A DNA stretch of 11,898 bases from a virus. Of this stretch, positions 1 to 11,898 are shown piece by piece (position 1 is the first letter of the stretch; every line of letters starts with the position of its first letter). The stretch is taken from IMG/VR virus record IMGVR_UViG_3300045988_036506; one strand, written 5' to 3'. The notes below the pieces were generated by a model. That model was not told the DNA's origin. It did not search any database and worked only from the letters and a program-made list of their open reading frames with translations. The translations under genes and the position numbers were made by a program.

Positions 1-62
1 AAAGGTACACTAGGCACCCAAATTTAACATTTCCCAACAAAATTTAACTCTAATTAAAACAG

Positions 63-164
63 TTTGGCACGCTTTTTGCTGCGAGCCGGATTTACGATTC
101 TTTAACACACTTTGGCACACTTTGGCACGCTTTTTGCTGCGAGCCGGATTTACGATTCTTTAAC
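63..164. repeat. 44-bp perfect direct repeat inside the ITR, 2 copies (63..106 and 121..164); mirrored at 11735..11836
   Basis: TTTGGCACGCTTTTTGCTGCGAGCCGGATTTACGATTCTTTAAC is read twice. A third partial TTTGGCAC lies at 111..118 between the copies. Confidence 0.95.
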
Positions 165-218
165 GCATTTAACGCATTTAACACATTTAACACATTTAAC
201 ACATTTAACACATTTAGC
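165..218. repeat. 9-bp tandem repeat array, 6 units, inside the ITR; mirrored at 11681..11734
   Basis: The units are GCATTTAAC x2, ACATTTAAC x3 and ACATTTAGC x1, head to tail. Isolated ATTTAAC copies also occur at 22..28 and 42..48. Confidence 0.95.
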
Positions 219-258
219 ACACCGTTACTTTTGTTAAACTTTCACAAAAATAATGTTT

Positions 259-308
259 CAAATGTTTCACGTGGAACAGTGGCGACAAATGTTTCACGTG
301 AAACAAAT
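259..308. promoter_or_regulatory. Two copies of the CACGTG-centred motif (reverse complement of CACGTGAAACATTT) in ITR-L, a putative protein-binding site
   Basis: CAAATGTTTCACGTGGAACA lies at 259..278 and AAATGTTTCACGTGAAACAAATG at 288..308. GTTTCACGTGAAAC at 291..304 is a perfect 14-bp palindrome. The two cores are 27 bp apart and lie about 60-110 bp upstream of the left promoter. Confidence 0.6.
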
Positions 309-367
309 GAGGGGTGAATTGTTAAAAAGATTAAAATTAAAACTTTTACACTATTTAACAAAAATAA

Positions 368-399
368 TTTGGTGGTTTCGTAAAAAAGTCGTATCTTTG
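368..399 (+). promoter_or_regulatory. Left-arm promoter, Bacteroidota sigma-A type (-33 TTTG, -7 TAtcTTTG)
   Basis: TTTG lies at 368..371, followed by a 20-nt spacer and TATCTTTG at 392..399. This matches the published Bacteroides consensus TTTG/TAnnTTTG. A near-identical copy sits at the right end and a third at 6637..6668. Confidence 0.65.
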
Positions 400-445
400 C
401 AACGTGATTAAGAAAAAGAAGTCAAACCCCTTAAAATATAAAATT

Positions 446-691
446 ATGGCAAAGTACAAATTTAATGTTAACGTTGATATAACATCTTTCAAAGGTGATA
501 ACGTTGCAACAACTGAAACAGTTACATTATCAAATTATGGTAATGATAACAAAGGTTTTAAAACCTTACATGATGCAAAAAATTTCTTTAAAGAAATTGT
601 AGAATCTTTGGCATCTAGCGACAACAAAGAAGACGTTTCATACATTATCAAAGATAATAAAAACTTTCTTTGGTTTATTATGATAAAGTGA
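446..691 (+). CDS. Hypothetical small protein (81 aa), first gene of the left arm
   Basis: This is ORF 404..691 trimmed to the ATG at 446 (MAKYKFNV...). The GTG at 404 lies at or upstream of the predicted transcription start, just after the -7 box at 392..399. I recognise no motifs. Confidence 0.55.
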   Translation: MAKYKFNVNVDITSFKGDNVATTETVTLSNYGNDNKGFKTLHDAKNFFKEIVESLASSDNKEDVSYIIKDNKNFLWFIMIK

Positions 692-743
692 ATAGAGAGT
701 TCATAAATAGAGAATATAAAGTTGTAAGAATTTAAGTTTAACC

Positions 744-769
744 GCCTGTAAGGTCCACCCCTTACAGGC
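744..769 (+). terminator. Stem-loop (10-bp perfect stem, 6-nt loop), a possible attenuator or weak terminator
   Basis: GCCTGTAAGG tccacc CCTTACAGGC is followed by TTAAAATAA, which is only a weak U-tract. It sits between the 81-aa ORF and the downstream ORF and endolysin. Confidence 0.5.
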
Positions 770-785
770 TTAAAATAACTGATAT

Positions 786-995
786 ATGGGATATTCATAT
801 TTTAGAATCACATTGAAACAAGCCGATAAAGTTACGGTTTTTATGGTACGCTCTGACAAACTAAGCGAGTTCTTCAATAATAAGATTGATTACTTACAGG
901 GCGATTGTTCAATAACAATTAAGGGGCGTTTTCCAACGCACAAAGATTCTCGCAAGTGGTTTTTAGTTCCACCAACAGAAAGTAAATATTTTTAG
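786..995 (+). CDS. Hypothetical protein (69 aa)
   Basis: The ORF fills the gap between the hairpin and the endolysin gene with tight spacing (21 nt to the next ATG). It has no recognisable motifs and no transmembrane segment. Confidence 0.4.
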   Translation: MGYSYFRITLKQADKVTVFMVRSDKLSEFFNNKIDYLQGDCSITIKGRFPTHKDSRKWFLVPPTESKYF

Positions 996-1015
996 TTCAA
1001 CAAATAATATGTTAT

Positions 1016-1441
1016 ATGAAAAAGATTAAGTATTTTAAATTGTCTGAGTTTATCAACTCAGCAACTGCAAAACGTTTGGGTATTGATAATATGCCATCGT
1101 TTGAAGTAGTTGACAACTTGAATCGTTTGGCTGATTATTTAGACGGTATTCGTGCAAAGTTGGGTAAGCCTATTTTAATTAGTAGTGGGTATCGTTGCCC
1201 GATGCTTAATAAGGCGGTCGGGGGTGTTGTTAACAGCCAACACCAAAAAGGTTTAGCTGCTGATTTGGTTTGTGCTGATATGAAATCTTTGGAAAAGGTT
1301 CTCAGAGAAACAGGCGGTTTTGACCAACTTATTAAAGAACACCGCAAAGGTTCTCCGAACTCGTTTTGGTTTCACGTTTCAGTTTGTGCACGCAACGGCA
1401 AACCACGAAATCAAATAATTATGAATCTAGAAAAGAAATGA
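1016..1441 (+). CDS. Endolysin, zinc peptidase M15 family (D-Ala-D-Ala carboxypeptidase or L-Ala-D-Glu peptidase-like, Peptidase_M15_3 type)
   Basis: The translation shows FKLSEF...TA..LGIDN.P, then SGYRCPMLNKAVGGVVNSQHQKGLAADL (the H-x6-D zinc-ligand motif) and a distal WFHVS histidine. This is the characteristic layout of phage M15 peptidoglycan peptidases. There is no signal peptide or transmembrane segment. Confidence 0.88.
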   Translation: MKKIKYFKLSEFINSATAKRLGIDNMPSFEVVDNLNRLADYLDGIRAKLGKPILISSGYRCPMLNKAVGGVVNSQHQKGLAADLVCADMKSLEKVLRETGGFDQLIKEHRKGSPNSFWFHVSVCARNGKPRNQIIMNLEKK

Positions 1442-1481
1442 AAGAACATTTTCAACTTTTGAAAGATTCTATTTCACTAAC

Positions 1482-1522
1482 AAAGAAAACAGGTGGTAAC
1501 AACTTTACCACCTGTTTTCTTT
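1482..1522. terminator. Bidirectional intrinsic terminator between the convergent arms
   Basis: AAAGAAAACAGGTGGTA (1482..1498), loop acaactt, then TACCACCTGTTTTCTTT (1506..1522) form a perfect 17-bp stem. The A/T-rich arm ends supply a U-tract in both directions. The right arm abuts the stop codon of the minus-strand 510-aa gene. Confidence 0.85.
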
Positions 1523-3054
1523 TATAAATAAACGCCTGTTTCCAACTGATTTATAATATCGTTGTACTCGTCAACTAACAAATTTGCAGCGTTCAAATTC
1601 ACGTTTTCAAACTGTGCAAACCCTGTAACGTCTTTTACTGTTACGTTTTCCTGTGTGTTGTTTACAGGAACGTTTACGGTTAAATTTTCAGTAATTAAAA
1701 CGTAAGGTTCTAAACCGTACAAAATTTGTTCGTTCCATTGTTCACCGCCAACAACGTTTAAATCTGTGCCCAAACGGTAAATAACATCACGTGACAACGA
1801 AAAACTTTCAAGTTGGAACGTTACACCATCACACGACAACAACGCCACGGCATCACCTGTAATCACGTTTACTTTGATAGATAAATTAATCGTTTTACCG
1901 ATGTAATTATTATCAATAGAAACAACGCCACGGCACGGGATAAACATTTGAATCTGTGCGTTATAGTCTTCATTATTGCCGTTTGCACCTGTTAGTTCAA
2001 CGTTGCCGAAATCAAGTAACATTATGTCACTTTCGGGGTATTTAACCGTTATGCCCGTGTTGTAGTTACCGCATTTCAAAACATCGTCACCGCCAACAGG
2101 AACGGGTGCAAAGATTCTTTTAATACGGTTCACATATTCACCCAAATTCACCTCAGAATAAGTTGTGCCCGTATCGCTTTCGCCCGTTGGCTTAAAGAAA
2201 CGTTTCTTTGCGAACTCGTCTAAGTTTTCCAACGTAACGATATAAACGTTTATTGCACCGTAATTTTTAATCGTTGGCGGTTGCACTACATCGGCATTTG
2301 CATAAACCGTTAAATCTGTTGCACCCGATGTTAATTTAAATGTTACAGTGCCCGTTTGCTTATCTTCTGAAATTGTGCCGTTACTTACAACTGTATTACC
2401 GTTGTTATTAGTGAAATTTGCCTGTATCTCGGTTAATTCCGCATTCGGGTTCGCTTTGAAATTAAACGTGTAACTTTGCCTCGTCTTCACTTTTACGGGT
2501 TTATCGCCTACAATTTCGCAATTTGTCAAACTGTAATCTACTGCGATATAATTACCCAAAAGATATTCACCGTTTATAATAACCGATTCCGTTGCAATAG
2601 GAACAATAATTGTTGCCGTTTGGTCGTTAACGGTCATATTGTATGTTTCACCCCCGTAAGTTATTGTAGGTGTACCGTTAAACATTCCCTGTGCCTTTCC
2701 CTCAACTGTTACGGTGTAATTTGTTTTACTTGCCACCGCTTTTGCAGTAGTGTTTGCAATATTGTTCGTTATTTGCAGTTCCTTTGCACCAGAAACAAAT
2801 TTACCTGTTATTGTGATTTCGTCATCGCTAGAGCAATAAACAGTAAGTGTTGCAACGTTGCCCGAAACATTAAACGGTGTATCTTCAATCCAATAGCCAT
2901 CCCAATTTTGATAACTAGCTTTTAAATCGGTAAATGTTCCATCACCGTTGCCCGTTACCGTTATATCGAAATGGTTGGAATCTGCTCCCTGTTTGTCGGT
3001 TATTGTAACGTCACCCGTTAACCCCGTTGTATCATAAGTTAATAAATTAGCCAT
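1522..3054 (-). CDS. Tail or receptor-binding structural protein (510 aa), last gene of the late operon
   Basis: This is the largest structural ORF. The N-terminal ~260 aa is T/N/G/V-rich, beta-strand-like, and appears to form about three tandem modules that each end in an alternating pattern (DEITITGKF, ESVIINGEY, ATDLTVYANAD). The C-terminal ~250 aa is a distinct domain. The functional call is positional and compositional only. Confidence 0.55.
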   Translation of the reverse strand: MANLLTYDTTGLTGDVTITDKQGADSNHFDITVTGNGDGTFTDLKASYQNWDGYWIEDTPFNVSGNVATLTVYCSSDDEITITGKFVSGAKELQITNNIANTTAKAVASKTNYTVTVEGKAQGMFNGTPTITYGGETYNMTVNDQTATIIVPIATESVIINGEYLLGNYIAVDYSLTNCEIVGDKPVKVKTRQSYTFNFKANPNAELTEIQANFTNNNGNTVVSNGTISEDKQTGTVTFKLTSGATDLTVYANADVVQPPTIKNYGAINVYIVTLENLDEFAKKRFFKPTGESDTGTTYSEVNLGEYVNRIKRIFAPVPVGGDDVLKCGNYNTGITVKYPESDIMLLDFGNVELTGANGNNEDYNAQIQMFIPCRGVVSIDNNYIGKTINLSIKVNVITGDAVALLSCDGVTFQLESFSLSRDVIYRLGTDLNVVGGEQWNEQILYGLEPYVLITENLTVNVPVNNTQENVTVKDVTGFAQFENVNLNAANLLVDEYNDIINQLETGVYL

Positions 3055-3056
3055 AA

Positions 3057-3500
3057 TTAAACGTTACCCTTAATTGTTACCATAATAATGTTACCCGTTT
3101 CATTCAGCAAATCTTTATTCGGAAAATCTAGTTTTCTGATATTCGGGCGAACATCAACCACATTTGAACGGTTTGAAAGATATTTGTTTCCGTTCTCGCT
3201 TTTTGTTAACGTTGCAGTACTGTTTAAGATAATATCCTTATAAGTAAAAAGAACGTCAACACGCAAACGAACGGTGCAAATATCGCCATCCTGTTGTTTT
3301 TCCGAAACGAAATAATAACGATTCAAACTTTCGATGTAAACGTAATTAAACGTAACAGGCGTGCGAGTTCTGAAACGAACAACAGGCGTTAACACGTTGA
3401 ACGTTGCATTTAATACGCCCGTGTATTCTTCGTTTGCCTGTAAATTCTTGTTTACTTCGTTGGGTTTGCCGTCGTAAACGAAAGTTTTAATTTTAATCAT
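3057..3500 (-). CDS. Hypothetical structural (tail or head-tail joining) protein, 147 aa
   Basis: This is ORF 3057..3539 trimmed to the ATG at 3500..3498 (MIKIKTFVYDG...). The TTG at 3539 lies inside the terminator hairpin at 3518..3554. The gene sits between the capsid and tail genes. Confidence 0.6.
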   Translation of the reverse strand: MIKIKTFVYDGKPNEVNKNLQANEEYTGVLNATFNVLTPVVRFRTRTPVTFNYVYIESLNRYYFVSEKQQDGDICTVRLRVDVLFTYKDIILNSTATLTKSENGNKYLSNRSNVVDVRPNIRKLDFPNKDLLNETGNIIMVTIKGNV

Positions 3501-3517
3501 ACCACTAAAAGTTAAAA

Positions 3518-3554
3518 GGGGGCATTCCTGTGCTATCAACTACAGGAACACCCC
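3518..3554 (-). terminator. Intrinsic terminator or attenuator just downstream of the major capsid gene
   Basis: The minus-strand RNA would read GGGGUGUUCCUGU-aguugauagc-ACAGGAAUGCCCC followed by UUUUAACUUUU. Partial termination after the capsid gene is a common arrangement. Confidence 0.7.
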
Positions 3555-3572
3555 AACAGTTAAACAACCAAA

Positions 3573-4757
3573 TTAGGCTACAAAGAACACGACAAAATTC
3601 TCGTTTGTGTCATTGAAGTAACCTGCATCGAATTTGTAGTAATTGTTAAAAAATTCTGCTTTGGCGTTGTAGTTGGTTGTTACTCGCTTATCTAAGTTTG
3701 TAACACCGAGAGCGTCACGGTCAAACATCACGCCCAAAACGCCACCGATAGAAACGGTCGCACCGCTTGCAGATTTCACATCTACCTTTGAAACGTTGGC
3801 GAAAGCGTAATCTTTTCCCGATGCTTGCCAACTTGCAACGGTTTCAGCCTGTGGCAAAAGAACATTCTCGTTATGGAATGTATCTGCATACAGGTAGGTT
3901 TTTGCAGCTGCTGCAAAGTCGGACAAAAGAACGGTGTGCAAAACGTCTTTTGGTGTGAAACGTTCCTTACCGCCAACGTTGAACAAAGTTGAAATTGTTT
4001 GCAAACGGTCGGCATACAAGCCCATCATATATGCAGCAAAACGGATAAAATCGGGGGTTGTTACCGCAACATTTGCAGCCAACGATGCACCAGTCTTCTC
4101 GTTGTAAAGTTTCAACAGGTTAACACAACGAACGGTTGATGCACTAGCATAATCAACTTTTTCGTTAGTTGATGCAACGAAACCGAATGCGGCCTTGTCG
4201 GCATCCAGCGTTTCAGCAATCATATTGTTAATCGTGCGCATAATAAGAGCATCGGTCTTGATAGTCATTGACTTCTCAACTGCTGAATAAATCATTGACA
4301 AAAAGCCATTCAGCTGTTCTGCGCTGCTGAAAGATTCCCTTACCTGTCGTTCGGTGATAGACACGGGAACTTCAAAAGTTACCTTTGAGTTAAAGAACTT
4401 AGCTGAAACGGTCGGTTTGTGGAACACGTCTTGGCTGTATTCCTTACCGTCAGTAAGATTCCACGTGTCGTTCTCTTCTGCTTTGGGAACGTCAGCGGAA
4501 ATTTTTTCCAATACAGACCCAAATTCCCAAGCATCCATCAACACGCTAGGAACTTTACCCGAATAAGGGCGGTTAACGAAAATCACTTTGCCGATGTGGT
4601 TTACAAGTGATTTCACGTAATTGTCAACGGCTTTCTGATTAAACACCTCATTACCCAAATCAACAATACCTGTAAGGTCTTCATGTACCAAATCGGTTTT
4701 GCCTAAAACTTCACCTGAAACGCTATTAATAAGCGTGTAAATTTGCTTTACTTCCAT
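3573..4757 (-). CDS. Major capsid protein (HK97-fold, phi29 gp8-like N-terminal and core regions)
   Basis: The 394-aa product lies downstream of the portal. DNYVKSLVNHIGKVIF and FSSAEQLNGFLSMIYSAVEKSMTIKTDALIMRTI resemble my recollection of phi29 gp8 ([47 protein letters not shown]). There is no Ig-like C-terminal extension. Confidence 0.78.
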   Translation of the reverse strand: MEVKQIYTLINSVSGEVLGKTDLVHEDLTGIVDLGNEVFNQKAVDNYVKSLVNHIGKVIFVNRPYSGKVPSVLMDAWEFGSVLEKISADVPKAEENDTWNLTDGKEYSQDVFHKPTVSAKFFNSKVTFEVPVSITERQVRESFSSAEQLNGFLSMIYSAVEKSMTIKTDALIMRTINNMIAETLDADKAAFGFVASTNEKVDYASASTVRCVNLLKLYNEKTGASLAANVAVTTPDFIRFAAYMMGLYADRLQTISTLFNVGGKERFTPKDVLHTVLLSDFAAAAKTYLYADTFHNENVLLPQAETVASWQASGKDYAFANVSKVDVKSASGATVSIGGVLGVMFDRDALGVTNLDKRVTTNYNAKAEFFNNYYKFDAGYFNDTNENFVVFFVA

Positions 4758-4774
4758 TTTATAAAATTTAAGTA

Positions 4775-5344
4775 TTAATAAATATCTATTGTTAACTCTT
4801 TTGCAAGTTCTGCGATAACTTGCATTTTGAAATTTGTTCTTCTGAGAATCATTTCTTTTTGAACAATTTCACTAACAGGAACACCATTCGGCAAACTGTT
4901 CTTAACAGTTGTTTTCGTGCTCGTTTCTTGTCGGTTTCCTGTGGAATCTCTTTGCTGCTTTGTGTCATTTCCGAAATCTCCATTATTAAACGTTACACTT
5001 GAATCGACCGTGCTATTATTACCTGTTTCGTCAACGGTGTTATTTGTTGTTTCCGTCAACTTTTCAGTAACAGGGTTTAATGGGTCATATTCGTTATTAA
5101 ACACTTGAATTTGTTTTTGCCATTCGTCAAACTTAACTGCTATGATACTTTTTACAATATCATTTGCAGTTTCGGGCGTAACGGCATTTACCAGCGTTCT
5201 GTTTCCATATTTGAAACGAAAATCAATATCAATCAAAAGCGGGTCATCTTCATTAAATATTGATTTGTACAAAGCAGGAAACAGGGGTTTAAAGATTTTT
5301 TCAAACAAACCATTTTCACCCGTGAAAAGTTCATTAATTGTCAT
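4775..5344 (-). CDS. Structural-module protein (189 aa), possibly a scaffolding or head-completion protein
   Basis: It lies between the portal and capsid genes, the canonical scaffold position. The middle is polar and low-complexity (N/T/S/D/Q-rich). The start overlaps the portal stop by 11 nt. No diagnostic motif was found. Confidence 0.55.
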   Translation of the reverse strand: MTINELFTGENGLFEKIFKPLFPALYKSIFNEDDPLLIDIDFRFKYGNRTLVNAVTPETANDIVKSIIAVKFDEWQKQIQVFNNEYDPLNPVTEKLTETTNNTVDETGNNSTVDSSVTFNNGDFGNDTKQQRDSTGNRQETSTKTTVKNSLPNGVPVSEIVQKEMILRRTNFKMQVIAELAKELTIDIY

Positions 5345-6410
5345 CTTTGTTTTCTTTTTCTTCTTTTTCTTCTGTTTCTTCTGTTTCCGTTTCTGTTTCT
5401 TCTGTTTCTGTTTCTGTTTCTTCTGTTTCTTCTGTTTCTTCTGTTTCTGTTTCCGTTTCTTCTGTTTCTTGCGTTTCTTCTGTTTCGTTTTCCGTTACAG
5501 TGTCAACGTCTTCTGTATCGGTGTGGTCGTGCCCGTCTTCTGTGGCTTTGAGCAACGATAAATAATTTTCGTGTTCAATCTTCCAGCTAGACCCCAAAGT
5601 TACGGTTATGTCCGTGCCGAACATTTCGTTAACACGTTTCACACCCTCAACACGTTCATTTAGCATTGAATCAACGAACGGCATTAAAGCGTCAATATTC
5701 ATTGAAACCTCTTGCGTGTTCAAACGTTCACGTTTCATATTATAGTTTGCATTCAAACCTAAATCGTTGAACATTGATGCTTTGTAATACTGCAAAAGTT
5801 CAATTAATTGCCCGATTTGCTGGTTTCCCTGTGTCGGTGGGGTCTGCAGGTTAACACCTTTGAAAAAGGCATTTTCCCCGATTACTGAGAAATCACCGTT
5901 CAAAATCTTCTGCAAAAAAGATTCTGCGCTTTGTTTTGTTTTATCATCACTAGCAGAAATAAGCATTGTGATTCTAGTTAAAATACTAGCCAAATTAAGC
6001 GTTATTGTTGCGTCGGTGTAAAGAACGCCATATTTGCCAATTAACGGCAAAAGTGAATCTGCAAACGGTGTGTTGTTGATAACGACAATATCGGAATCAA
6101 TTTTAAACGTTTTGTTCACATTCAACCACGGGTTTGCTACAACGTAATATTTGCCGTGATAATAGGCATCACATTCACCAACCCGTGTTCCATTCAGTGC
6201 ATACAGTTCACCGTTCACTTCTGCTATTCCAACGTTACCCGATGTCTGCAGAATCTTTTCAAGTTCAACGGGCGGCATCGTTTCGGGTGCGCCCGTATAT
6301 TCAAACATCCTTGAAGTCATACAAAGAACTCGTTGCATAAACGTGAATAATGCTGAATCTTTGTTTTTAACTTCTGTTTGATACCTGTTGTATAAGTTTT
6401 CTTTCTCCAT
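5334..6410 (-). CDS. Portal (head-tail connector) protein, phi29 gp10-like, with an acidic Glu/Thr repeat C-terminal tail
   Basis: [31 protein letters not shown] resembles phi29 gp10 [57 protein letters not shown] resembles [26 protein letters not shown]. Both phi29 strings are recalled from memory. The last ~60 aa read ...[52 protein letters not shown]. Confidence 0.85.
   Translation of the reverse strand: [358 protein letters not shown]
5345..5490. repeat. Imperfect GTTTCT / TCT (6- and 3-nt) tandem repeat tract encoding the portal acidic tail
   Basis: The plus strand reads ...ttctgtttcttctgtttccgtttctgtttcttctgtttctgtttctgtttcttctgtttc.... It also generates the spurious F/C-rich and S/V-rich plus-strand ORFs 5142..5561 and 5338..5565. 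Confidence 0.9.
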
Positions 6411-6604
6411 TATTTAACATGCGTTTTAATTAAGGTACAAAGTTCTGTTAACACCTTAGTGTTACTTTGCACGGTTTCGTTCAACTTGTCGGTTTCCTGC
6501 TGGTGGCGTTCGTTTTGTTTCTCCATATAGAAGAAAAGGGCGATACAAACCGCTACAGGAAAACCAACGTTACCAACTAGGGATACAATAGCGTTCACAT
6601 CCAT
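6410..6604 (-). CDS. Small single-pass membrane protein (64 aa), a holin candidate with possible YvrJ-family resemblance
   Basis: The N-terminal hydrophobic segment IVSLVGNVGFPVAVCIALFFY is followed by a charged helical tail. It is the first gene after the late promoter, and its stop overlaps the portal ATG by 1 nt. The LVGNVGFP...Y..EK pattern recalls YvrJ-family proteins from memory only. Confidence 0.6.
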   Translation of the reverse strand: MDVNAIVSLVGNVGFPVAVCIALFFYMEKQNERHQQETDKLNETVQSNTKVLTELCTLIKTHVK

Positions 6605-6636
6605 ATAGCAAAATTTAACTTTGTTATTTTACGATG

Positions 6637-6668
6637 CAAAGATAATACTATTATTTGGTATTACCAAA
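6637..6668 (-). promoter_or_regulatory. Late (structural-operon) promoter, Bacteroidota sigma-A type
   Basis: The minus strand reads TTTG (6668..6665), a 20-nt spacer, then TATCTTTG (6644..6637), followed by CATCGT. Spacing and the extended -7 box (TATCTTTGCAnCGT) match the two terminal promoters. The -33 box lies within the 21-bp palindrome at 6651..6671. Confidence 0.65.
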
Positions 6669-6671
6669 TAA

Positions 6672-6715
6672 AACGGGGGAAAAGTGTTCCACGTGAAACA
6701 TTTTTAACCCCCGTT
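6672..6715 (-). terminator. Terminator hairpin after the early operon, with a CACGTGAAACATTT motif copy embedded in the stem
   Basis: AACGGGGG (6672..6679) pairs with CCCCCGTT (6708..6715). The interior TGTTCCACGTGAAACA is largely self-complementary. On the minus strand the hairpin is followed by UUAUUUGG. It lies 9 nt after the ATPase stop codon. Confidence 0.7.
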
Positions 6716-6723
6716 AACAGATA

Positions 6724-7863
6724 TTAAGTAATAATGTTACTTCTTGCGCTTGCCATCAAGTAATTACGCACAATTTCACCTATTTCGTTATTTTGATAAA
6801 ATACCTTATCGGTTGCGAAATACTTCGTTATCTGAGATTCTACAAACGTTGCATTGCTCAACAACTTTCGCTTATAGTTCGGCTTGCCGTTCATCTGCAG
6901 CGAATAAATCAAACTGTTGTCCGTGTCCTTAATCGGGGTTGTCTTGCTGTGAATGTAAATGAAGTTATTCACCCCCGTTTCTTCGTCTTCCAACTGAATA
7001 ACGTTGCCCTGTAAGGTCATTTCGTTAAACTGAATGTAAAAGACAAACAATACGTCATTCGGTTTGTATTTTACAGGCAAATGGGGATATGCAGCGAGTT
7101 CCCATTTACCGCCCGTAATCATTTGCAAATTCTCATTGTCGAAACAGAAATACTTGTTGCTCGCCTTGTGCTTGACAATCGTGCTGCAATATTCTACTGC
7201 AACGGTTGCACCGTGTTCACCGAATTTATAAATATCTATTGTTCCCTGTTCCATTGCACGAACTTGTTTCAATCCCATTTCTGAGAAATACGGGCAAAAC
7301 TGATTCACGGTGTTACCCAGCATAAAAACTTTAACATCGTTTCTCTGTCGAATAATCGTGCTTAACAGGTTCATATACAGCATAAATTCATCGGGTAAAT
7401 AATAACGTCTTGTCAGGAACTCATCAAATACCACGGTTGTTATATTCGGGTAACTGCTGGATTTTTCGTGTTCCTGTTCTGATAAACAGAAACCAAAACA
7501 AAACGGGGTGCTGTCGGGTACACGTTTCTTTGTTTCGGCATCGTAGGACGAAAGAAACCATTTACCCGAAATATAAAACACTTCGTTAAACTTACCACCT
7601 GTCAGTTCCTGTATTACGCCATTTGCAACGTGATTTGAAAACAGACTTTCGGCACGTTTGCCCCTTAAATCTTCGCGCCATCTACGAATATACGCCATTT
7701 GCTTTCCTGTGCGCAAATATTCTTTGATGCCATACAATAACGTTGCATACGTTTTACCGTTGGAACGTTCACCAAAAATAACGTTGTAATCGGCATTCTT
7801 TGATAAAATGCGATTCAACGTGTAAAATTTCGGCGTTTCTACATTTTCTTTCTTCTGTTTCAT
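6724..7863 (-). CDS. DNA encapsidation (packaging) ATPase, phi29 gp16-like
   Basis: Walker A is FGERSNGKTYA (nt 7750..7773 encode GERSNGKT). Walker B is PNITTVVFDEFL. MAYIRRWREDL, SSSYPNITTVVFDEF and LPDEFMLYMNLLSTIIRQRNDVKVFMLGNTVNQFCPYF are collinear with phi29 gp16 FIYVRRYKPEL, SNAYPNVSTIVFDEF and IPNEVSALLNLMDTVFRNRERVRCICLSNAVSVVNPYF, recalled from memory. Confidence 0.9.
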   Translation of the reverse strand: MKQKKENVETPKFYTLNRILSKNADYNVIFGERSNGKTYATLLYGIKEYLRTGKQMAYIRRWREDLRGKRAESLFSNHVANGVIQELTGGKFNEVFYISGKWFLSSYDAETKKRVPDSTPFCFGFCLSEQEHEKSSSYPNITTVVFDEFLTRRYYLPDEFMLYMNLLSTIIRQRNDVKVFMLGNTVNQFCPYFSEMGLKQVRAMEQGTIDIYKFGEHGATVAVEYCSTIVKHKASNKYFCFDNENLQMITGGKWELAAYPHLPVKYKPNDVLFVFYIQFNEMTLQGNVIQLEDEETGVNNFIYIHSKTTPIKDTDNSLIYSLQMNGKPNYKRKLLSNATFVESQITKYFATDKVFYQNNEIGEIVRNYLMASARSNIIT

Positions 7864-7864
7864 A

Positions 7865-10072
7865 TTATTCTTTCTTTAATCTGATTCCCATTAAATAATT
7901 AATATAAAGAACTGAAAGACTTAAAGTGTACCCCGTTGGCTCTAAGTGAACACCAGTTAACGTGTCGTAACTTGAAACCGTACCTTTGTAATCTTTTATC
8001 GTTCCCGTCTGTTCATAATCAATATATGTGTGAATGTTCTTACCTGTTGCCGATGGCGGTATATCTAGATAATTTGTGAATGCGTCAAATATCCCACTTT
8101 CACCAAACGTTTCTAACATATACGGGATAGCAGATTTTTTGTTAACGCCCGAAACGGTCATTGAGTAATCGTAATCTTTGCCGTTTACTGTAAGGGCGTT
8201 TTCTTCCTGTACCATATAGCGTTTTGCACCTAAAGTTTTGAAACGGGTGTAACGCCCCTCATAGTCCCAAACCCCCAACGGTTTTGCGATTCCCCTTATC
8301 GTGACGGGTTCAACCTTTTCAAACGGTATTTTATGATGCTTACAGGCGGCACGTAATTTTCTTTGCGCTAAATCGTTGTAGGCCTTGAAATATTCTTTGT
8401 GTGCATCACCGTTCATTATTTTAACGGAATCTGTGTCACTGTATATGTAATCGTCACCACATTCCGAAATACCCGTAAAAAGGTTGCGTCTGGCATAAGC
8501 GGTAACATAAATACCCCACGGGTAAAACAAAAAGCGGTTTTTACTATCATTATATTTATTTAGCATTACTAATTGTTTTTCGCCTGTAAGGTGTTCAATA
8601 TCCCACGTTTCACCATCACATAAAATTTCATCACGCAACGGGTTTGTAACACACATACCGTAACAACTGTTCAGCATTTCTTTGCTATTCAAATACTCAA
8701 CCTCTTTTCCCTTAACACCTTTTAATTTTGTTTTCATTTCATACAGGTGCAGAATAGATTCTACAAATTCGGTCGGCAAATATTCTTTTCGGTAGCATAT
8801 CATTCGCCCGATTCTTATTTGTTCCCACGTGTAAAACTGTGAAAACACTTTGTAATCTATTTCTGTAATAGTCATACATATTTTCTTAGCACAAACCAAA
8901 CGCCCGTTGTTTTCGGAAACATTTTCTTTCACGAAGCATTTACTAACAGAAATTGGATTCTCGTTTTCTGATTTTGCAAAAATGTTTGTTATCTCTACAT
9001 CAAACACGCAACAGAATTTACTACACATAAACTCAAATTGTTTCATTGATTTAACAGGAACAACAACACCCGTGCTCATCGGAAACTTTTCTGAAACCAT
9101 CACATACGGGTAACTACTGGTAAAATCGTAACTGTCTACGTTTTCTATAACTTCATCGGTATATTTTGCGTTGGCGTGTGTAAAACCGCCCGAAAACGCC
9201 CGTTGTAACATTGCAAATTCTTCCATACCTGTTATATTCAAAGAATGAATCTTATCAATGTATTTAAAGTTTGGAATCGTTTTGCCTGTTTCGTCAGTTG
9301 CCTTAAAACATACCGAACGGCAATATTTACGCACAAACCCCGTTTTTGTAACCGGTAAACGTGTTATTCCTTTGTACTGTTCGATTAATTCCTGTATGTA
9401 ACACATCACCACTTTTATATCATTCAAGCAATAACCAATTTCTTTTTGCGTTAACGGTGTTCTACTGTGACGTAACAAACTGTAATCTAAATCACCTACC
9501 AACTTTTCACATTTATATTTGTGAAGCTGTTCACCCAATTTCGCCAACGAATAACCCGAAAGCAAATAAGAACATCGGAACTCTAGACCCGTTTTTGTTA
9601 CACCGTAAATCGGTTTACGCAAATCTATTGAGAAAACTTTTTCCCAATCTAACATTTCACGGAAAAATTGGAACTCGTATGCCAAATTGTGAACGTATAT
9701 GATAATGCGTTTCTTTGGGCAAAGTTTCAATATATCCACGATTTCGGATAACATTTGCAAAAATTCATCCCACGTTCTGCCAATTATGCAAAAACCGTTT
9801 ATTCCAAATTGCCAAACATACATTAAAGAACATTTTTCCATTTTGGTTTGCTTGCCGCCTAATTTCATATAACGTTCGTAACTGTATGTTTCCCCGTCTT
9901 CATCCCTGTAAAATGAAGTTGTTTCAATATCGAAAGATACAGGCACGTTTAAGAACTTTTCGCCCTTATTGTTGCCTGTAAAATTCTTTTCATTCACCGC
10001 CAAAGATAAAACCTTTGCAATATCTTTAGGCGTGTAAATTTCTGTATGTAGTTCAAAGGGTATTTTCTTCAT
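7865..10072 (-). CDS. Protein-primed family-B DNA polymerase (735 aa)
   Basis: All hallmark motifs are present in order. They are ExoI FDIETT (D48/E50), ExoII HNLAYEFQF (N129), ExoIII YCLNDIK (Y214/D218), FSGGF (the YxGG/A equivalent), motif A DFTSSYP (D316), motif B KEMLNSCYG (K464), motif C YSDTDS (nt 8426..8443, checked against the DNA) and KxY as GAKRYM (K617). Long inserts between motifs A-B and B-C fit TPR1/TPR2-type regions. Confidence 0.95.
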   Translation of the reverse strand: MKKIPFELHTEIYTPKDIAKVLSLAVNEKNFTGNNKGEKFLNVPVSFDIETTSFYRDEDGETYSYERYMKLGGKQTKMEKCSLMYVWQFGINGFCIIGRTWDEFLQMLSEIVDILKLCPKKRIIIYVHNLAYEFQFFREMLDWEKVFSIDLRKPIYGVTKTGLEFRCSYLLSGYSLAKLGEQLHKYKCEKLVGDLDYSLLRHSRTPLTQKEIGYCLNDIKVVMCYIQELIEQYKGITRLPVTKTGFVRKYCRSVCFKATDETGKTIPNFKYIDKIHSLNITGMEEFAMLQRAFSGGFTHANAKYTDEVIENVDSYDFTSSYPYVMVSEKFPMSTGVVVPVKSMKQFEFMCSKFCCVFDVEITNIFAKSENENPISVSKCFVKENVSENNGRLVCAKKICMTITEIDYKVFSQFYTWEQIRIGRMICYRKEYLPTEFVESILHLYEMKTKLKGVKGKEVEYLNSKEMLNSCYGMCVTNPLRDEILCDGETWDIEHLTGEKQLVMLNKYNDSKNRFLFYPWGIYVTAYARRNLFTGISECGDDYIYSDTDSVKIMNGDAHKEYFKAYNDLAQRKLRAACKHHKIPFEKVEPVTIRGIAKPLGVWDYEGRYTRFKTLGAKRYMVQEENALTVNGKDYDYSMTVSGVNKKSAIPYMLETFGESGIFDAFTNYLDIPPSATGKNIHTYIDYEQTGTIKDYKGTVSSYDTLTGVHLEPTGYTLSLSVLYINYLMGIRLKKE

Positions 10073-10743
10073 TATAAACCAAATTTTTCAAATTCTGATA
10101 GAATCTTTTTTAACGGTTCATCCGTTTTGAAATGGTCAACACCGTTCACGAAAGCCTCTGAATTCGGGTCTTTTGCTATTTGTTCGATAGCTGCATCTAA
10201 GGCGTTTTCAATTTTAACGGCATCGTCTTCGATTTGGTCGGACACGTCACGGGATTCTTGTTCAAGTTCACCCGTAAAATCTTTGTATTGCATTAAGTAT
10301 TGTTCCAAAAATCGTTCATCGGAAACACTTGCAATTTTACCCATCAATTTGTCTTGCATCAACTTAAATTCTTCATCATTTAATTTGTAAGACTTCTTTA
10401 AATGGTTTGAATATTCACGTGTACCACTTGCCGTTGATGTAGGCTGTTGCAAAAATGAAATCGCTTTGGAATATTCGATTTTTAAATCGTTCCAATCGTG
10501 TTTCATCGAAAACTTTGTGAATCGCTTAATATCACCCTTATTTAACGCAACAACTGCGGGCGAAACAAAACCAGACCTTTCCACATTCTGAATGCGCCTG
10601 TTTGCCTGTTGAAACACACGGGCGATTTCTTTGCGCAAATAGCCACGGGATTCTATTGCATCCATAATTTGCTTGTCAACGTGTATTTTTGCCGTTGATG
10701 CAAACGTTCTTTTTGAAAACCCAATCGGATTTAACTTTGCCAT
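10072..10743 (-). CDS. Putative terminal protein (223 aa)
   Basis: It lies immediately upstream of the polymerase, with a 1-nt stop/start overlap, as in phi29 gene 3 and gene 2. The N-terminal half is basic and the C-terminal half strongly acidic (ELEQESRDVSDQIEDDAVKIE...). The C-terminus KILSEFEKFGL recalls phi29 TP KILSYLEQY...KGF. Similarity is weak and recalled, and the priming residue is not identified. Confidence 0.6.
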   Translation of the reverse strand: MAKLNPIGFSKRTFASTAKIHVDKQIMDAIESRGYLRKEIARVFQQANRRIQNVERSGFVSPAVVALNKGDIKRFTKFSMKHDWNDLKIEYSKAISFLQQPTSTASGTREYSNHLKKSYKLNDEEFKLMQDKLMGKIASVSDERFLEQYLMQYKDFTGELEQESRDVSDQIEDDAVKIENALDAAIEQIAKDPNSEAFVNGVDHFKTDEPLKKILSEFEKFGL

Positions 10744-10771
10744 AATATCAACACTTTTAAATGAAATAAAA

Positions 10772-10811
10772 ACGGGGGTAACAATAACTTTTAATTACTG
10801 TTTACCCCCGT
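10772..10811 (-). terminator. Intrinsic terminator or attenuator between the small early genes and the terminal protein/polymerase genes
   Basis: The minus-strand RNA would read ACGGGGGUAA-...-UUACCCCCGU (10-bp stem) followed by UUUUAUUUCAUUU. Its G5/C5 stem arms match those of the 6672..6715 hairpin. Confidence 0.7.
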
Positions 10812-10838
10812 GACGTTATCCACCCTTACCCTACAAAA

Positions 10839-11204
10839 CTACTTATCTACAAAGGTAATACCGTAACACTTTTTGGTGTGCGATTCATATTCATAAATCG
10901 TGTAACCAACTTTGTTTGCTTTGATAGCGTCAACCGCCTCACTATTAGCGAGAATCTCTCGCACCGTGTCACCTGTGAACTGTGGCAAATTCACAAGACG
11001 CTTGTTTTCTGCGTCAATAATTACAGGTGAATCGCCCAACTGTGATTTGTGAACGTACATACCATTGACAGGGTGTACTACATCACCGCCACCGTCTTTT
11101 TTACTGTTGTAAATGTCGGTCAACTTCACAAACGGAAAATCGGTCGTATCAATACCAAAACTAGTCTTATTGAAAGTACTAGCAAAACTAAAACCCTTAG
11201 CCAT
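10839..11204 (-). CDS. Early protein (121 aa), possibly a single-stranded or double-stranded DNA-binding protein
   Basis: The ORF is clean, with an ATG start and a terminator downstream. Its size and early-operon position parallel phi29 p5 (124 aa). No diagnostic motif was found, so the function is positional inference only. Confidence 0.5.
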   Translation of the reverse strand: MAKGFSFASTFNKTSFGIDTTDFPFVKLTDIYNSKKDGGGDVVHPVNGMYVHKSQLGDSPVIIDAENKRLVNLPQFTGDTVREILANSEAVDAIKANKVGYTIYEYESHTKKCYGITFVDK

Positions 11205-11252
11205 AACTTTAAACTTTTAAAAACGTTGAACTTCTGATGCCCGTGAACTGTG

Positions 11253-11420
11253 TTACTTTACTTCATTCACCCCGTTTGCTGCTGCAAACTCGTTCAACCA
11301 CTTCTTAAAGCGGTTCAACTTGATAACCGCCTTATCGTCTTTTGCGACTTCGTTTGAAGTCATAAGAGCGTTAACACTAGTGATGCAGTTGAAAACAGTC
11401 TCATTAAAATTCTCATTCAT
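11253..11420 (-). CDS. Small early ORF (55 aa), not in the supplied track
   Basis: I translated it by hand as MNENFNETVFNCITSVNALMTSNEVAKDDKAVIKLNRFKKWLNEFAAANGVNEVK*. It is the first ATG (11420..11418) about 43 nt downstream of the right promoter's predicted start, and it fills an otherwise empty gap. Confidence 0.45.
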   Translation of the reverse strand: MNENFNETVFNCITSVNALMTSNEVAKDDKAVIKLNRFKKWLNEFAAANGVNEVK

Positions 11421-11469
11421 AATTACCTAATTTAAATTGTTAAACTTATATTGTTTCTTAAACACGGTG

Positions 11470-11501
11470 CAAAGATACAACGATTTTGCGAAACCACCAA
11501 A
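11470..11501 (-). promoter_or_regulatory. Right-arm early promoter, Bacteroidota sigma-A type
   Basis: The minus strand reads TTTG (11501..11498), a 20-nt spacer, then TATCTTTG (11477..11470), followed by CACCGTG. The 53-nt block 11463..11515 matches 354..406 at 47 of 53 positions in inverted orientation. Confidence 0.65.
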
Positions 11502-11557
11502 TTATTTTCGTTAAAAAGTCTTAAAGAAATAAATTAACTGTTGTTAACACTTGTAAC

Positions 11558-11640
11558 GGTCCACGTGAAACATTTGTAACATCACCCCTCATTTGTTTCA
11601 CGTGAAACATTTGTCGCCACTGTTCCACGTGAAACATTTG
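11558..11640. promoter_or_regulatory. Three copies of the CACGTGAAACATTT motif at the right end, one outside the ITR
   Basis: GGTCCACGTGAAACATTT lies at 11558..11575, inboard of the ITR boundary, with no counterpart on the left. The ITR copies lie at 11591..11611 and 11621..11640. The cores are at 11562, 11599 and 11626. Confidence 0.6.
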
Positions 11641-11898
11641 AAACATTATTTTTGTGAAAGTTTAACAAAAGTAACGGTGTGCTAAATGTGTTAAATGTGT
11701 TAAATGTGTTAAATGTGTTAAATGCGTTAAATGCGTTAAAGAATCGTAAATCCGGCTCGCAGCAAAAAGCGTGCCAAAGTGTGCCAAAGTGTGTTAAAGA
11801 ATCGTAAATCCGGCTCGCAGCAAAAAGCGTGCCAAACTGTTTTAATTAGAGTTAAATTTTGTTGGGAAATGTTAAATTTGGGTGCCTAGTGTACCTTT
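11582..11898. repeat. Right inverted terminal repeat (ITR-R), 317 bp
   Basis: It is the exact reverse complement of 1..317. It contains the mirrored 9-bp array (11681..11734) and the mirrored 44-bp direct repeats (11735..11778 and 11793..11836). Confidence 0.97.

What the first reader, a model, noticed from the sequence alone, without database searches (positions are those of the whole stretch)
259..308. A CACGTGAAACATTT motif occurs six times, only in non-coding DNA upstream of the three promoters
Copies were read directly at 259..278 and 288..308 (reverse orientation), 6684..6705, 11558..11575, 11591..11611 and 11621..11640. The consensus is (T/G)(T/C)(T/C)CACGTGAAACATTT. One version, GTTTCACGTGAAAC, is a perfect 14-bp palindrome. 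Bare CACGTG hexamers occur in coding regions (for example about 1788, 4463, 8826 and 10415), but I saw the extended motif in no coding region. Every copy lies upstream of a promoter: about 60-110 nt from the left promoter, about 55-140 nt from the right promoter and about 20 nt from the late promoter. This looks like the operator or enhancer set of a phage-encoded (or host) dimeric DNA-binding regulator that coordinates early and late transcription. Alternatively it could nucleate an origin-proximal nucleoprotein complex like phi29 p6/p4. Candidate binders are the unassigned small proteins of 55, 81, 69 and 121 aa.
Basis: partly seen in the sequence, partly recalled or inferred. Interest (0 to 1): 0.8.

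Follow-up and report, generated by a model that had tools for sequence, protein, structure and literature searches.

The report
Host parS centromere sites on phage
The repeated motif is the universal bacterial centromere sequence parS, so this small phi29-like gut phage most likely recruits its host's chromosome-partitioning protein ParB, as phage phi29 does in Bacillus, but here apparently in a host that does not form spores.

Summary
The 14-mer occurs six times, always in non-coding DNA, and 0.36 matches are expected by chance. Two copies are duplicates, because the window is a complete linear phi29-like phage genome with perfect 317-bp inverted terminal repeats (ITRs).

The conserved unit is a 16-bp palindrome, TGTT(T/C)CACGTGAAACA. 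This is exactly the canonical chromosomal parS site bound by ParB/Spo0J. There are five perfect sites and one with two mismatches.

Among 75 near-complete relatives, 70 keep terminal sites and 67 keep the central site. A sister clade (polymerase 69% identical) keeps two perfect sites per ITR although the surrounding ITR sequence has diverged.

phi29, Nf and B103 carry the same sequence. In phi29 the sites mediate Spo0J-dependent spore entrapment. Relatives infecting Enterobacterales, which lack chromosomal Par systems, have none.

No window protein resembles ParB or any other DNA-binding family.

Promoter type (TTTG-N20-TAnnTTTG) and the total absence of Shine-Dalgarno motifs point to a Bacteroidota host, which does not sporulate.

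Best reading: host ParB loads at these sites. The downstream role is not settled; it could be partition or carrier state, transcription, or origin function.

This is a new variant of a known kind. The small phage proteins proposed as binders have no support.

The parts
263..278 (.). parS site L1 (TGTTTCACGTGGAACA; a perfect match to TGTTNCACGTGAAACA on the - strand), inside the left ITR
290..305 (.). parS site L2, a perfect 16-bp palindrome TGTTTCACGTGAAACA inside the left ITR, 27 bp centre-to-centre from L1
6685..6700 (.). Central parS site (TGTTCCACGTGAAACA), between the gp16-like ATPase gene and the holin-like gene
   Evidence: It is conserved in 67 of 75 near-complete relatives.
6670..6717 (-). 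Terminator-like hairpin (AACGGGGG...CCCCCGTT followed by TTTTATTT) with the central parS at its apex. It ends the early operon immediately upstream of the late promoter.
   Evidence: RNA fold of the 71-nt stretch 6655-6725 gives -22.4 kcal/mol, z = -3.4. The outer stem co-varies in relatives (GGGGG/CCCCC, AGGGG/CCCCT, CAGGG/CCCTG).
11557..11572 (.). Degenerate third right-end parS (CGGTCCACGTGAAACA, 2 mismatches). It lies in the short stretch 11553-11581 between the perfect right ITR (from 11582) and the 81%-similar promoter arm (11454-11552), which has no left-end counterpart.
11594..11609 (.). parS site R2, the ITR copy of L2
11621..11636 (.). parS site R1, the ITR copy of L1
1..317 (.). Left inverted terminal repeat (100% identical to 11582-11898). 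It contains 2 x 58-bp repeats, a 9-bp tandem array, and then the parS pair at its inner edge.
11582..11898 (.). Right inverted terminal repeat
368..399 (+). Predicted left early promoter, TTTG-N20-TATCTTTG. The parS centres lie 94.5 and 121.5 bp upstream of the TAnnTTTG box.
   Evidence: It is conserved in relatives. It is a prediction only.
6637..6668 (-). Predicted late promoter, TTTG-N20-TATCTTTG. The parS centre lies 48.5 bp upstream of the TAnnTTTG box.
11470..11501 (-). Predicted right early promoter, TTTG-N20-TATCTTTG. The parS centres lie 87.5, 124.5 and 151.5 bp upstream.

Best explanation
The motif copies are host-type parS centromere sites, 16-bp palindromes of the form TGTT(T/C)CACGTGAAACA. 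The phage encodes no ParB. Dimers of the host's chromosomal ParB are therefore expected to nucleate on the five or six sites: a pair (or three) at the inner edge of each ITR and one at the early/late boundary.

From there ParB should close as CTP-bound clamps and slide over the 11.9-kb genome. The covalently attached terminal proteins could keep the clamps from running off the ends.

This would give the phage DNA the identity of a host origin region. It would couple the DNA to the ParA/ParB segregation and organisation machinery, so that an infecting or slowly replicating genome is positioned and inherited with the chromosome in a carrier or pseudolysogenic state. This is the non-sporulating counterpart of Spo0J-parS-mediated spore entrapment of phi29.

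Shown here: sequence identity to parS, selection for the sites, and absence of a phage ParB.

Inferred: ParB binding, clamp retention by the terminal protein, and the biological pay-off.

My estimates: the sites bind host ParB, about 0.85. Given that, partition or hitch-hiking is the main role at about 0.4. Transcriptional control, origin activation and ParB titration share most of the rest.
For: (1) Identity. There are five perfect matches to TGTTNCACGTGAAACA and one with 2 mismatches, against 0.14 expected. The consensus is documented for Firmicutes, Actinobacteria and Proteobacteria (PMC7022226). A full-text search for the core sequence listed only ParB/parS/Noc and chromosome-origin papers among the 20 shown.

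(2) Precedent. phi29 carries 4 perfect TGTTCCACGTGAAACA, and Nf and B103 carry 2 each. The literature reports that phi29 has five parS sites and that Spo0J helps to trap its genome in the spore (PMC2731898).

(3) Selection. Of 75 near-complete relatives (polymerase 89-99% identical), 70 keep terminal sites and 67 keep the central site, with a median of 5 sites per genome. The CACGTG-anchored logo shows conservation of exactly the 16-mer. 199 of 231 distinct terminal CACGTG contexts are within 1 mismatch of parS, against 4 of 208 elsewhere. In alignments the sites are conserved islands between variable spacers. In the sister clade (polymerase 69% identical), 69 of 72 near-complete genomes carry parS, usually two perfect sites per ITR. 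Between the clades only the terminal about 140 nt, the parS and the promoter align.

(4) Recurrence in lineages that share no small proteins. L115 has 15 sites, L120 has 6, and L104, L119, Clostridium phage HM2 and MT836125 also carry sites. 27 of the first 120 IMG/VR contigs with a perfect parS are phi29-like. A composition-matched control palindrome gave only 22 contigs, and none was phi29-like.

(5) Negative control. Salmonella, Enterobacter and Pectobacterium relatives have none. Enterobacteriaceae chromosomes lack par genes (PMC7022226).

(6) No phage ParB, ParA or HTH protein was found.

(7) The likely host phylum has ParABS and consensus parS. All 12 OMM12 gut genomes do; B. caecimuris is named in the paper's text, and the membership of Bacteroidota species in that consortium is my own knowledge (PMC10197239).

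(8) ParB-CTP clamps need blocked DNA ends (PMC7053999).
Against: No binding data exist and the host is not identified. MAG binning of relatives is taxonomically incoherent; the two closest fall in Gastranaerophilales bins.

Recruiting ParB is not a general need of the family. Acinetobacter phage Phanie, Vibrio phage K58 g2, Cp-1, P68, asccphi28 and GA-1 have no site, although several of their hosts have ParB/parS.

Among cultured phages the sites are seen only with spore-forming hosts. The spore-independent role proposed here is therefore an extrapolation.

In this clade every site sits 50-150 bp upstream of a predicted promoter, which a pure partition role does not require.

Homologues of the 121-aa protein co-occur with parS among deeper relatives: 6 of 9 with the protein have parS, against 7 of 34 without it. 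This is confounded by phylogeny, and the protein's fold could not be determined.
Confidence: 0.6

Rival explanations
1. Host ParB binds, but the selected function is transcriptional. ParB complexes 50-150 bp upstream of the two early promoters and the late promoter would act as repressor, insulator or roadblock. This would link the early/late programme, or a lytic deferment, to ParB or cell-cycle status. The central site, at the terminator apex, would block read-through into the late genes.
For: All sites in this clade lie just upstream of the three predicted promoters. The promoter-proximal site keeps a similar distance at both ends (94.5 and 87.5 bp). The central site sits in the terminator loop next to the -33 element. 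ParB and KorB can silence or regulate genes near parS (PMC7022226, section 10). phi29 uses another host factor, Spo0A, at its promoters.
Against: In L115, L120 and phi29 the sites are scattered, some in coding DNA and many not near promoters. The sister clade has no central site. According to the review, chromosomal ParB has been shown to regulate only a limited number of genes in a limited number of species. Non-coding placement can be explained simply by tolerance of a 16-bp palindrome there.
Confidence: 0.15
2. ParB nucleoprotein complexes at the ITRs serve replication. They would organise or open the origin-proximal DNA, or tether the ends to the nucleoid or membrane. This would replace the phi29 p6-type complex, for which no homologue is detected.
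For: At least one parS lies in each terminal repeat in every Shine-Dalgarno-less lineage examined: the window clade, the L093 clade, L115 and L120. No p6 or p5 homologue was detected. Host Spo0A binding near the phi29 ends affects replication (PMC2731898).
Against: The sites are 260-310 bp from the ends here, and the distance varies widely among relatives (about 40 to 270 bp). Any element inside an ITR is automatically present at both ends. The phi29 sites are not terminal. The central site is unexplained by this reading.
Confidence: 0.12
3. ParB titration as host take-over. Replicating phage DNA would supply hundreds to thousands of parS copies, draining ParB from the chromosome origin and disturbing host segregation and division.
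For: There are multiple high-affinity consensus sites per 12-kb genome, up to 15 in L115. Par proteins are reported as not abundant (PMC7022226, conclusions section).
Against: parB is non-essential in many bacteria, with mild phenotypes (Table 1 of PMC7022226). The benefit to a fast lytic phage is unclear. This reading does not explain the ITR placement.
Confidence: 0.08
4. A phage-encoded regulator, for example the 121-aa or 55-aa early protein, binds the palindrome as an operator. The identity with parS would be coincidence or mimicry.
For: The 121-aa gene is the second early gene and is conserved. Its homologues are present in most deeper relatives that have parS. Its function is unknown.
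Against: The match to a universal host site is exact, 15 of 15 specified positions at five sites. The same site occurs in phi29, HM2, MT836125, L101, L104 and L117, which lack homologues of all four small proteins. None of the small proteins shows a DNA-binding domain signature.
Confidence: 0.07
5. The palindrome acts as a nucleic-acid structure, such as a terminator or processing hairpin or a cruciform, without a specific protein.
For: The central copy is the apex of a strong terminator-like hairpin. In L115 most copies lie in intergenic spacers.
Against: The ITR copies lie upstream of the promoters and are probably not transcribed. Variation among copies is by non-compensated point changes, and the primary sequence is conserved rather than the pairing. 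On its own the palindrome can pair only 6 bp around a 4-nt loop.
Confidence: 0.04

Closest known systems
parS sites of Bacillus phages phi29, Nf and B103, bound by host Spo0J (ParB) for spore entrapment (Meijer et al. 2005, as cited in PMC2731898)
   Same: The phage type is the same: terminal-protein-primed PolB, phi29-type capsid protein, connector and gp16 ATPase. The 16-mer is identical; TGTTCCACGTGAAACA is the phi29 form. Several copies occur per genome, and the phage encodes no ParB.
   Different: Here the sites are all non-coding, paired inside long ITRs, with one more in a terminator loop. In phi29 three of the four perfect sites are inside genes in the right half of the genome. There is no enrichment of Spo0A boxes. 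Promoter type and the lack of Shine-Dalgarno motifs indicate a Bacteroidota host, which does not sporulate. Spore entrapment therefore cannot be the pay-off.
Chromosomal ParABS centromeres (parS clusters near oriC)
   Same: The consensus sequence, the palindromic 16-bp architecture and the clustering of several sites are the same.
   Different: The sites are on a 12-kb linear viral genome with protein-capped ends, with no adjacent parAB genes. The copy number per kb is far higher than on chromosomes.
Partition sites of plasmid prophages (P1 parS/ParB; N15 dispersed sopC-like centromeres with SopB). This comparison rests on my own knowledge and was not checked here.
   Same: These are phage genomes that carry centromere sites. 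In N15 the sites are dispersed along a linear genome and lie near promoters.
   Different: Those phages encode their own ParA/ParB (SopA/SopB) with private site specificities and are temperate. This phage encodes neither protein, uses the host chromosomal consensus, and shows no lysogeny genes.
phi29 p4/p6 operator and nucleoprotein system
   Same: Repeated protein-binding sites lie between early and late transcription units and near the genome ends.
   Different: No p4 or p6 homologue was detected. The site sequence is a host consensus rather than a phage-specific one. The sites lie upstream of the core promoters rather than overlapping them.
ParB-family proteins acting as transcriptional regulators (KorB of IncP plasmids, P. 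aeruginosa ParB; PMC7022226)
   Same: parS-like palindromes placed upstream of promoters could silence or modulate transcription.
   Different: This is known for plasmid or chromosomal genes, not for a virulent phage programme. It was not tested here.

Membership tests
Chromosomal-type parS (ParB/Spo0J nucleation site) | 16-bp palindrome matching TGTTNCACGTGAAACA | tested here: met
   Five sites match 15 of 15 specified bases and one has 2 mismatches, against 0.14 expected. The consensus comes from PMC7022226 Table 1.
Chromosomal-type parS (ParB/Spo0J nucleation site) | Conservation of exactly the 16-mer under selection in related genomes | tested here: met
   70 of 75 relatives keep terminal sites and 67 of 75 keep the central site. 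69 of 72 sister-clade genomes carry sites. The flanks diverge while the 16-mer stays perfect.
Chromosomal-type parS (ParB/Spo0J nucleation site) | Specific binding by a ParB dimer and CTP-dependent spreading | not testable with these tools
   This needs EMSA or BLI and ChIP-seq. The mechanism is documented for chromosomal ParBs (PMC7053999).
Chromosomal-type parS (ParB/Spo0J nucleation site) | A ParB with this specificity is present in the cell (host- or element-encoded) | tested here: inconclusive
   No phage ParB was found. The host is not identified, and MAG bins conflict. Host signals point to Bacteroidota. ParABS and consensus parS are reported in all 12 OMM12 gut genomes, among them B. 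caecimuris (PMC10197239).
phi29-type phage-borne parS used for Spo0J-mediated spore entrapment | phi29-like phage (protein-primed PolB, phi29 capsid protein, connector, gp16 ATPase, linear genome with ITRs) | tested here: met
   Phi29_MCP 2e-55, Phage_connector 3.6e-13, Podovirus_Gp16 1.2e-23, DNA_pol_B_2 2.5e-16; a 317-bp ITR.
phi29-type phage-borne parS used for Spo0J-mediated spore entrapment | Several consensus parS sites on the phage genome and no phage ParB | tested here: met
   for the window. for phi29 (4 perfect sites), Nf (2) and B103 (2).
phi29-type phage-borne parS used for Spo0J-mediated spore entrapment | Spore-forming host, with Spo0A boxes (TGTCGAA) at the phage promoters | tested here: not met
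   TGTCGAA occurs twice against 2.0 expected, both times inside the ATPase gene. The window shows 0 of 13 genes with a Shine-Dalgarno-like motif, against 62-64% in phages of Firmicutes. Promoters are of the TTTG-N20-TAnnTTTG type. This indicates a Bacteroidota-like, non-sporulating host by inference; the host was not identified directly.
Operator set of a phage-encoded transcription regulator (phi29 p4-like) | A phage-encoded sequence-specific DNA-binding protein | tested here: not met
   There is no p4 homologue and no HTH, RHH or other DNA-binding domain in any unassigned ORF. The AF2 model of the 121-aa protein was unusable, with pLDDT 48.
Operator set of a phage-encoded transcription regulator (phi29 p4-like) | Sites specific to the phage lineage and co-varying with the regulator | tested here: not met
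   The same 16-mer occurs in phages that lack all four small proteins, and it is the universal host consensus.

The most novel reading that the evidence does not exclude
In non-sporulating Bacteroidota, virulent phi29-like gut phages may use ITR-embedded host parS sites to load host ParB-CTP clamps between their terminal-protein-capped ends. This would turn the infecting genome into an actively partitioned linear episome, a ParB-dependent carrier state with no phage-encoded partition genes. Alternatively, ParB may serve as the origin-organising or promoter-silencing nucleoprotein that phi29 builds with p6. Either way, ParB hijacking would be a general, spore-independent strategy of protein-primed phages rather than a Bacillus curiosity.
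Probability: 0.3. Interest if true: 0.8.

Novelty: new variant of a known kind. Interest (0 to 1): 0.62.

Why it matters
Host parS sites on a phage genome are known from one model system, phi29 and its relatives in Bacillus. There they are explained entirely by sporulation.

Here the same perfect sites are under clear selection in two abundant clades of about 11-12-kb gut phages. Their expression signals are of the Bacteroidota type. The sites also recur in many other metagenomic phi29-like lineages. This suggests that hijacking the host centromere protein is a broader phage strategy with a spore-independent pay-off.

It gives a concrete, testable handle on how nominally virulent gut phages persist with their hosts, whether by a carrier state or by pseudolysogeny. 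It also bears on how ParB-CTP clamps behave on protein-capped linear DNA.

On the practical side, parS scanning could flag such phages. It also warns that 'operators' read from raw sequence may in fact be host cis-elements.

Tried and rejected
- Megablast of the whole window against GenBank phages found no match. Protein-level relatives are astrithr-like phages at about 46% polymerase identity.
- The Rfam scan gave no pRNA or other credible RNA, only sub-threshold chance hits.
- The sigma-70 promoter and terminator scan was uninformative: 42 promoter-like sites against 33 expected. The Bacteroidota-type pattern was used instead.
- I tested the 121-aa early protein as an alternative binder. The profile search against PDB gave only a non-significant Rpo7 S1/OB hit (E = 0.017). 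The AF2 model had mean pLDDT 48, so no fold search was run.
- The 223-aa protein in the terminal-protein position shows no ParB or HTH similarity.
- Host assignment from MAG bins of relatives is incoherent: Gastranaerophilales, Prevotella, Phocaeicola, Clostridia, Staphylococcaceae and others. I rejected it as evidence.
- The IMG/VR search for relatives of the L115 polymerase found none.
- Spo0A boxes are not enriched.
- Isolated half-parS heptamers are not enriched beyond the full sites: 7 outside the full sites, against 4.9 expected in total.
- I considered CACGTG scarcity in some relatives as evidence of purging around retained parS. I rejected it, because only about 1.4 copies are expected per genome anyway.
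- Livny et al. 2007 (PMC2168934) is not held in the library.

Full report
WHAT THE WINDOW IS

The 11,898-bp window is a complete linear phage genome with 37.5% GC. It has a perfect 317-bp inverted terminal repeat (ITR), 1-317 / 11582-11898. A further 99 nt follow at 81% similarity and hold the two early promoter regions.

The genes are phi29-like. They include a phi29-type major capsid protein (Pfam Phi29_MCP, 2e-55), a connector, a gp16-type packaging ATPase, a protein-primed family-B DNA polymerase and an M15 endolysin. There are also several small unassigned ORFs.

Nothing similar at the DNA level is in GenBank phages. The nearest cultured relatives are Salmonella, Enterobacter, Acinetobacter, Pectobacterium and Vibrio astrithr-like phages, at 42-46% polymerase identity.

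CHECKING THE OBSERVATION

The 14-mer CACGTGAAACATTT occurs exactly six times, at the stated places. At up to 2 mismatches there are 9 matches against 0.36 expected, and no shuffle reaches that number. All six copies are in the 12% of the genome that is non-coding. The four other CACGTG hexamers are coding.

Two of the six copies are ITR duplicates, so there are four independent copies. The right end has one extra, degenerate copy at 11557-11572. It lies in the short stretch between the perfect ITR and the 81%-similar promoter arm, which has no counterpart at the left end.

WHAT THE MOTIF IS

A full-text search for the core sequence TTTCACGTGAAA found 30 papers. The 20 listed deal with ParB/parS/Noc or chromosome-origin biology.

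The canonical chromosomal centromere is TGTTNCACGTGAAACA. It is documented for B. subtilis, C. glutamicum, Caulobacter, Burkholderia and others (PMC7022226 Table 1).

The window contains five perfect matches and one with two mismatches:
- 263-278, perfect
- 290-305, perfect (a perfect 16-bp palindrome)
- 6685-6700, perfect
- 11594-11609, perfect (a perfect 16-bp palindrome)
- 11621-11636, perfect
- 11557-11572, two mismatches

Only 0.14 such matches are expected. The motif is therefore parS, not a phage-specific operator.

CONSERVATION IN THE CLOSE CLADE

IMG/VR holds at least 107 relatives with 89-99% polymerase identity, and I examined the best 80.

Among the 75 that are at least 11 kb long:
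- 70 carry terminal parS sites with at most 1 mismatch;
- 67 carry the central site;
- the median is 5 sites per genome;
- there are 209 perfect and 164 one-mismatch sites in total;
- only 4 sites lie elsewhere in the genome.

I then built a logo anchored only on the hexamer CACGTG, so that the flanks were not pre-selected. Information content is near maximal for exactly five bases on either side and collapses beyond them. 199 of 231 distinct terminal CACGTG contexts are within one mismatch of parS, against 4 of 208 elsewhere in the genome.

In an alignment of the ITR-to-promoter region from 44 distinct relatives, the two parS blocks are conserved islands. They are separated by variable spacers and by gains or losses of whole parS-containing units.

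CONSERVATION IN THE SISTER CLADE

A sister clade (L093-like) has a polymerase 69% and a capsid protein 80% identical to the window's. In that clade, 69 of 72 near-complete genomes carry parS. Typically there are two perfect sites 42 bp apart in each ITR, and no central site.

Between the two clades, only three parts of the terminal region remain alignable: the outermost 140 nt or so, the 19-mer AAATGTTTCACGTGGAACA, and the promoter elements. This is good evidence for purifying selection on the 16-mer itself.

OCCURRENCE IN OTHER PHI29-LIKE PHAGES

Cultured phages with perfect sites:
- phi29 has four perfect TGTTCCACGTGAAACA.
- Nf and B103 have two perfect sites each.
- Clostridium phage HM2 has one perfect site and one with one mismatch.
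- A human-faecal contig, MT836125, has one perfect site and one with one mismatch.

The literature states that phi29 has five parS sites. It also states that Spo0J takes part in segregating the phage genome into the prespore (PMC2731898).

Deeper relatives recovered from MAG assemblies also carry sites:
- L115 has 15 sites with at most 2 mismatches, 12 of them in short intergenic gaps.
- L120 has 6.
- L104 and L119 have 3 each.

Many of those contigs carry several copies, and 27 of the 120 encode phi29-type hallmark proteins from divergent lineages. A composition-matched control palindrome occurred on only 22 contigs. None of these was multi-copy and none was phi29-like.

NEGATIVE CASES

The Salmonella, Enterobacter and Pectobacterium relatives have no site, even at 3 mismatches. 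This fits the absence of chromosomal par genes in Enterobacteriaceae (PMC7022226).

Acinetobacter phage Phanie, Vibrio phage K58 g2, GA-1, Cp-1, asccphi28 and P68 also have none. The trait is therefore lineage-specific and not universal.

WHO BINDS

No window protein matches ParB, ParA or any DNA-binding family in Pfam, PHROGs, NCBIfam or PDB.

The 121-aa protein does co-occur with parS among the nearer relatives, but this is confounded by phylogeny. Its AlphaFold model was unusable, with pLDDT 48.

The parsimonious binder is the host's chromosomal ParB. I put this at about 0.85.

THE HOST

MAG binning of relatives is taxonomically incoherent and is not trustworthy.

Two sequence features point to Bacteroidota.
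- The three intergenic promoters have the form TTTG-N20-TAtcTTTG. The TATCTTTGCA part is invariant across relatives. This matches the Bacteroidota -33/-7 consensus TTTG/TAnnTTTG, which I take from established knowledge. The sequences can also be read as a weak sigma-70 promoter.
- None of 13 genes has a Shine-Dalgarno-like motif. The same is true of L093, L094, L115 and L120. The figure is 54-77% in phages of Firmicutes and Proteobacteria.

Spo0A boxes are at chance level.

ParABS homologues and consensus parS sites were reported in all 12 OMM12 gut genomes, among them B. caecimuris (PMC10197239). That this consortium includes Bacteroidota species is my own knowledge.

The host is thus probably a non-sporulating Bacteroidota member. 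This is inferred, not shown.

ANATOMY AND LIKELY MECHANISM

From each genome end inward, the order of elements is as follows:
- an origin-proximal block that is conserved between the clades;
- two 58-bp repeats;
- a 9-bp tandem array;
- the parS pair, 27 bp centre to centre;
- after about 90 bp, an inward-firing early promoter.

The central parS is the apex of a terminator-like hairpin. The fold of the surrounding 71-nt stretch gives -22.4 kcal/mol with z = -3.4. The outer stem co-varies in relatives, and its T-tract overlaps the -33 element of the late promoter.

ParB-CTP clamps load at parS and slide along the DNA. They run off free DNA ends unless blocked (PMC7053999). On this genome the covalently bound terminal proteins could act as the blocks. 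Sites at both ends and in the middle would then coat the whole 12 kb. This step is inferred.

The most likely consequence, by analogy with phi29, is that the phage genome hitch-hikes on host chromosome segregation. In a non-sporulating host that means inheritance or positioning in a carrier state.

Because every site in this clade is 50-150 bp upstream of a promoter, a transcriptional role remains a serious rival. That role could be silencing, insulation or a roadblock. An origin-organising role and ParB titration are also not excluded.

COMPARISON WITH WHAT IS KNOWN, AND NOVELTY

The closest known case is the phi29/Nf/B103 parS-Spo0J system. The phage type, the 16-mer and the lack of a phage ParB are all the same.

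The differences are these:
- The placement is exclusively non-coding and ITR-embedded.
- One site lies inside a terminator loop.
- There are no Spo0A boxes.
- The host signals argue against sporulation, so the known pay-off cannot apply.

A 2024 review of phi29-like phages contains no mention of parS or Spo0J (PMC11476376). My literature searches found no report of chromosomal parS on phages outside the Bacillus phi29 group. Absence from this library is not proof.

I classify the finding as a new variant of a known kind.

VERDICT

- Interest: 0.62.

Noticed in passing
window, genome-wide (e.g. 470-475, 494-499): The palindrome AACGTT occurs 30 times against 3.9 expected from base composition. 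In coding DNA it occurs 29 times against 16.4 +/- 3.2 after synonymous-codon shuffling, and it falls in all three frames. GTTAAC (18 copies) and TTGCAA (16 copies) are also about 4-fold enriched. This is unexplained.
   Followed up: partly
window 43-158 and 11741-11856; L252 60-190: Two 58-bp direct repeats in each ITR each contain TTTGGCACGCTTTTTGCT. The element recurs 2-3 times in the ITR of the sister clade despite 28% divergence. It may be a second protein-binding or origin element.
   Followed up: partly
window 159-221 and 11678-11740: A tandem array of six to seven 9-bp units (CATTTAAC[A/G]) lies between the 58-bp repeats and the parS pair. It is not conserved in the sister clade.
   Followed up: partly
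L012 (IMGVR_UViG_3300045988_044823), whole locus; parS at 35, 64, about 4940, 11679, 11708: This relative has lost every CACGTG in its genome, while its close neighbours have 9-12. Each parS carries a different core mutation (CATGTG, CACGCG, or a 1-nt shift). This looks like escape from a CACGTG-specific restriction enzyme at the cost of perfect parS.
   Followed up: partly
L115 (JAZUKR010000061.1), 39-11802: There are 15 parS-like sites (at most 2 mismatches) in 11.8 kb. 12 lie in short intergenic gaps, and one directly abuts a start codon (2556-2571, ATG at 2572). This is a far denser and differently placed arrangement than in the window.
   Followed up: partly
window, all 13 gene starts scored; also L093, L094, L115, L120: No gene has a Shine-Dalgarno-like motif at -18..-5. 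In phi29-like phages of Firmicutes and Proteobacteria the figure is 54-77%. Together with the TTTG-N20-TAnnTTTG promoters, this indicates a Bacteroidota-type host. The MAG bins holding relatives name many unrelated taxa.
   Followed up: yes
window 5342-5500 (- strand; 3' end of the connector gene 5334-6410): Tandem repeats of 9 and 12 nt (TTCTGTTTC...) encode a long acidic ETEETE... tail at the C-terminus of the connector protein.
   Followed up: no
window 10770-10812 and 1484-1520: Two further strong hairpins are present. ACGGGGGTAA...TTACCCCCGT lies between the 121-aa gene and the 223-aa gene, and may be an attenuator within the early operon. A symmetric hairpin lies between the convergent endolysin and tail genes, and is probably a bidirectional terminator.
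   Followed up: no
L144, L146, L184 (IMG/VR contigs): Viral contigs that are not phi29-like carry clusters of 5 perfect or near-perfect parS within 0.8-2.4 kb. They may be phage-plasmids or host origin fragments.
   Followed up: no
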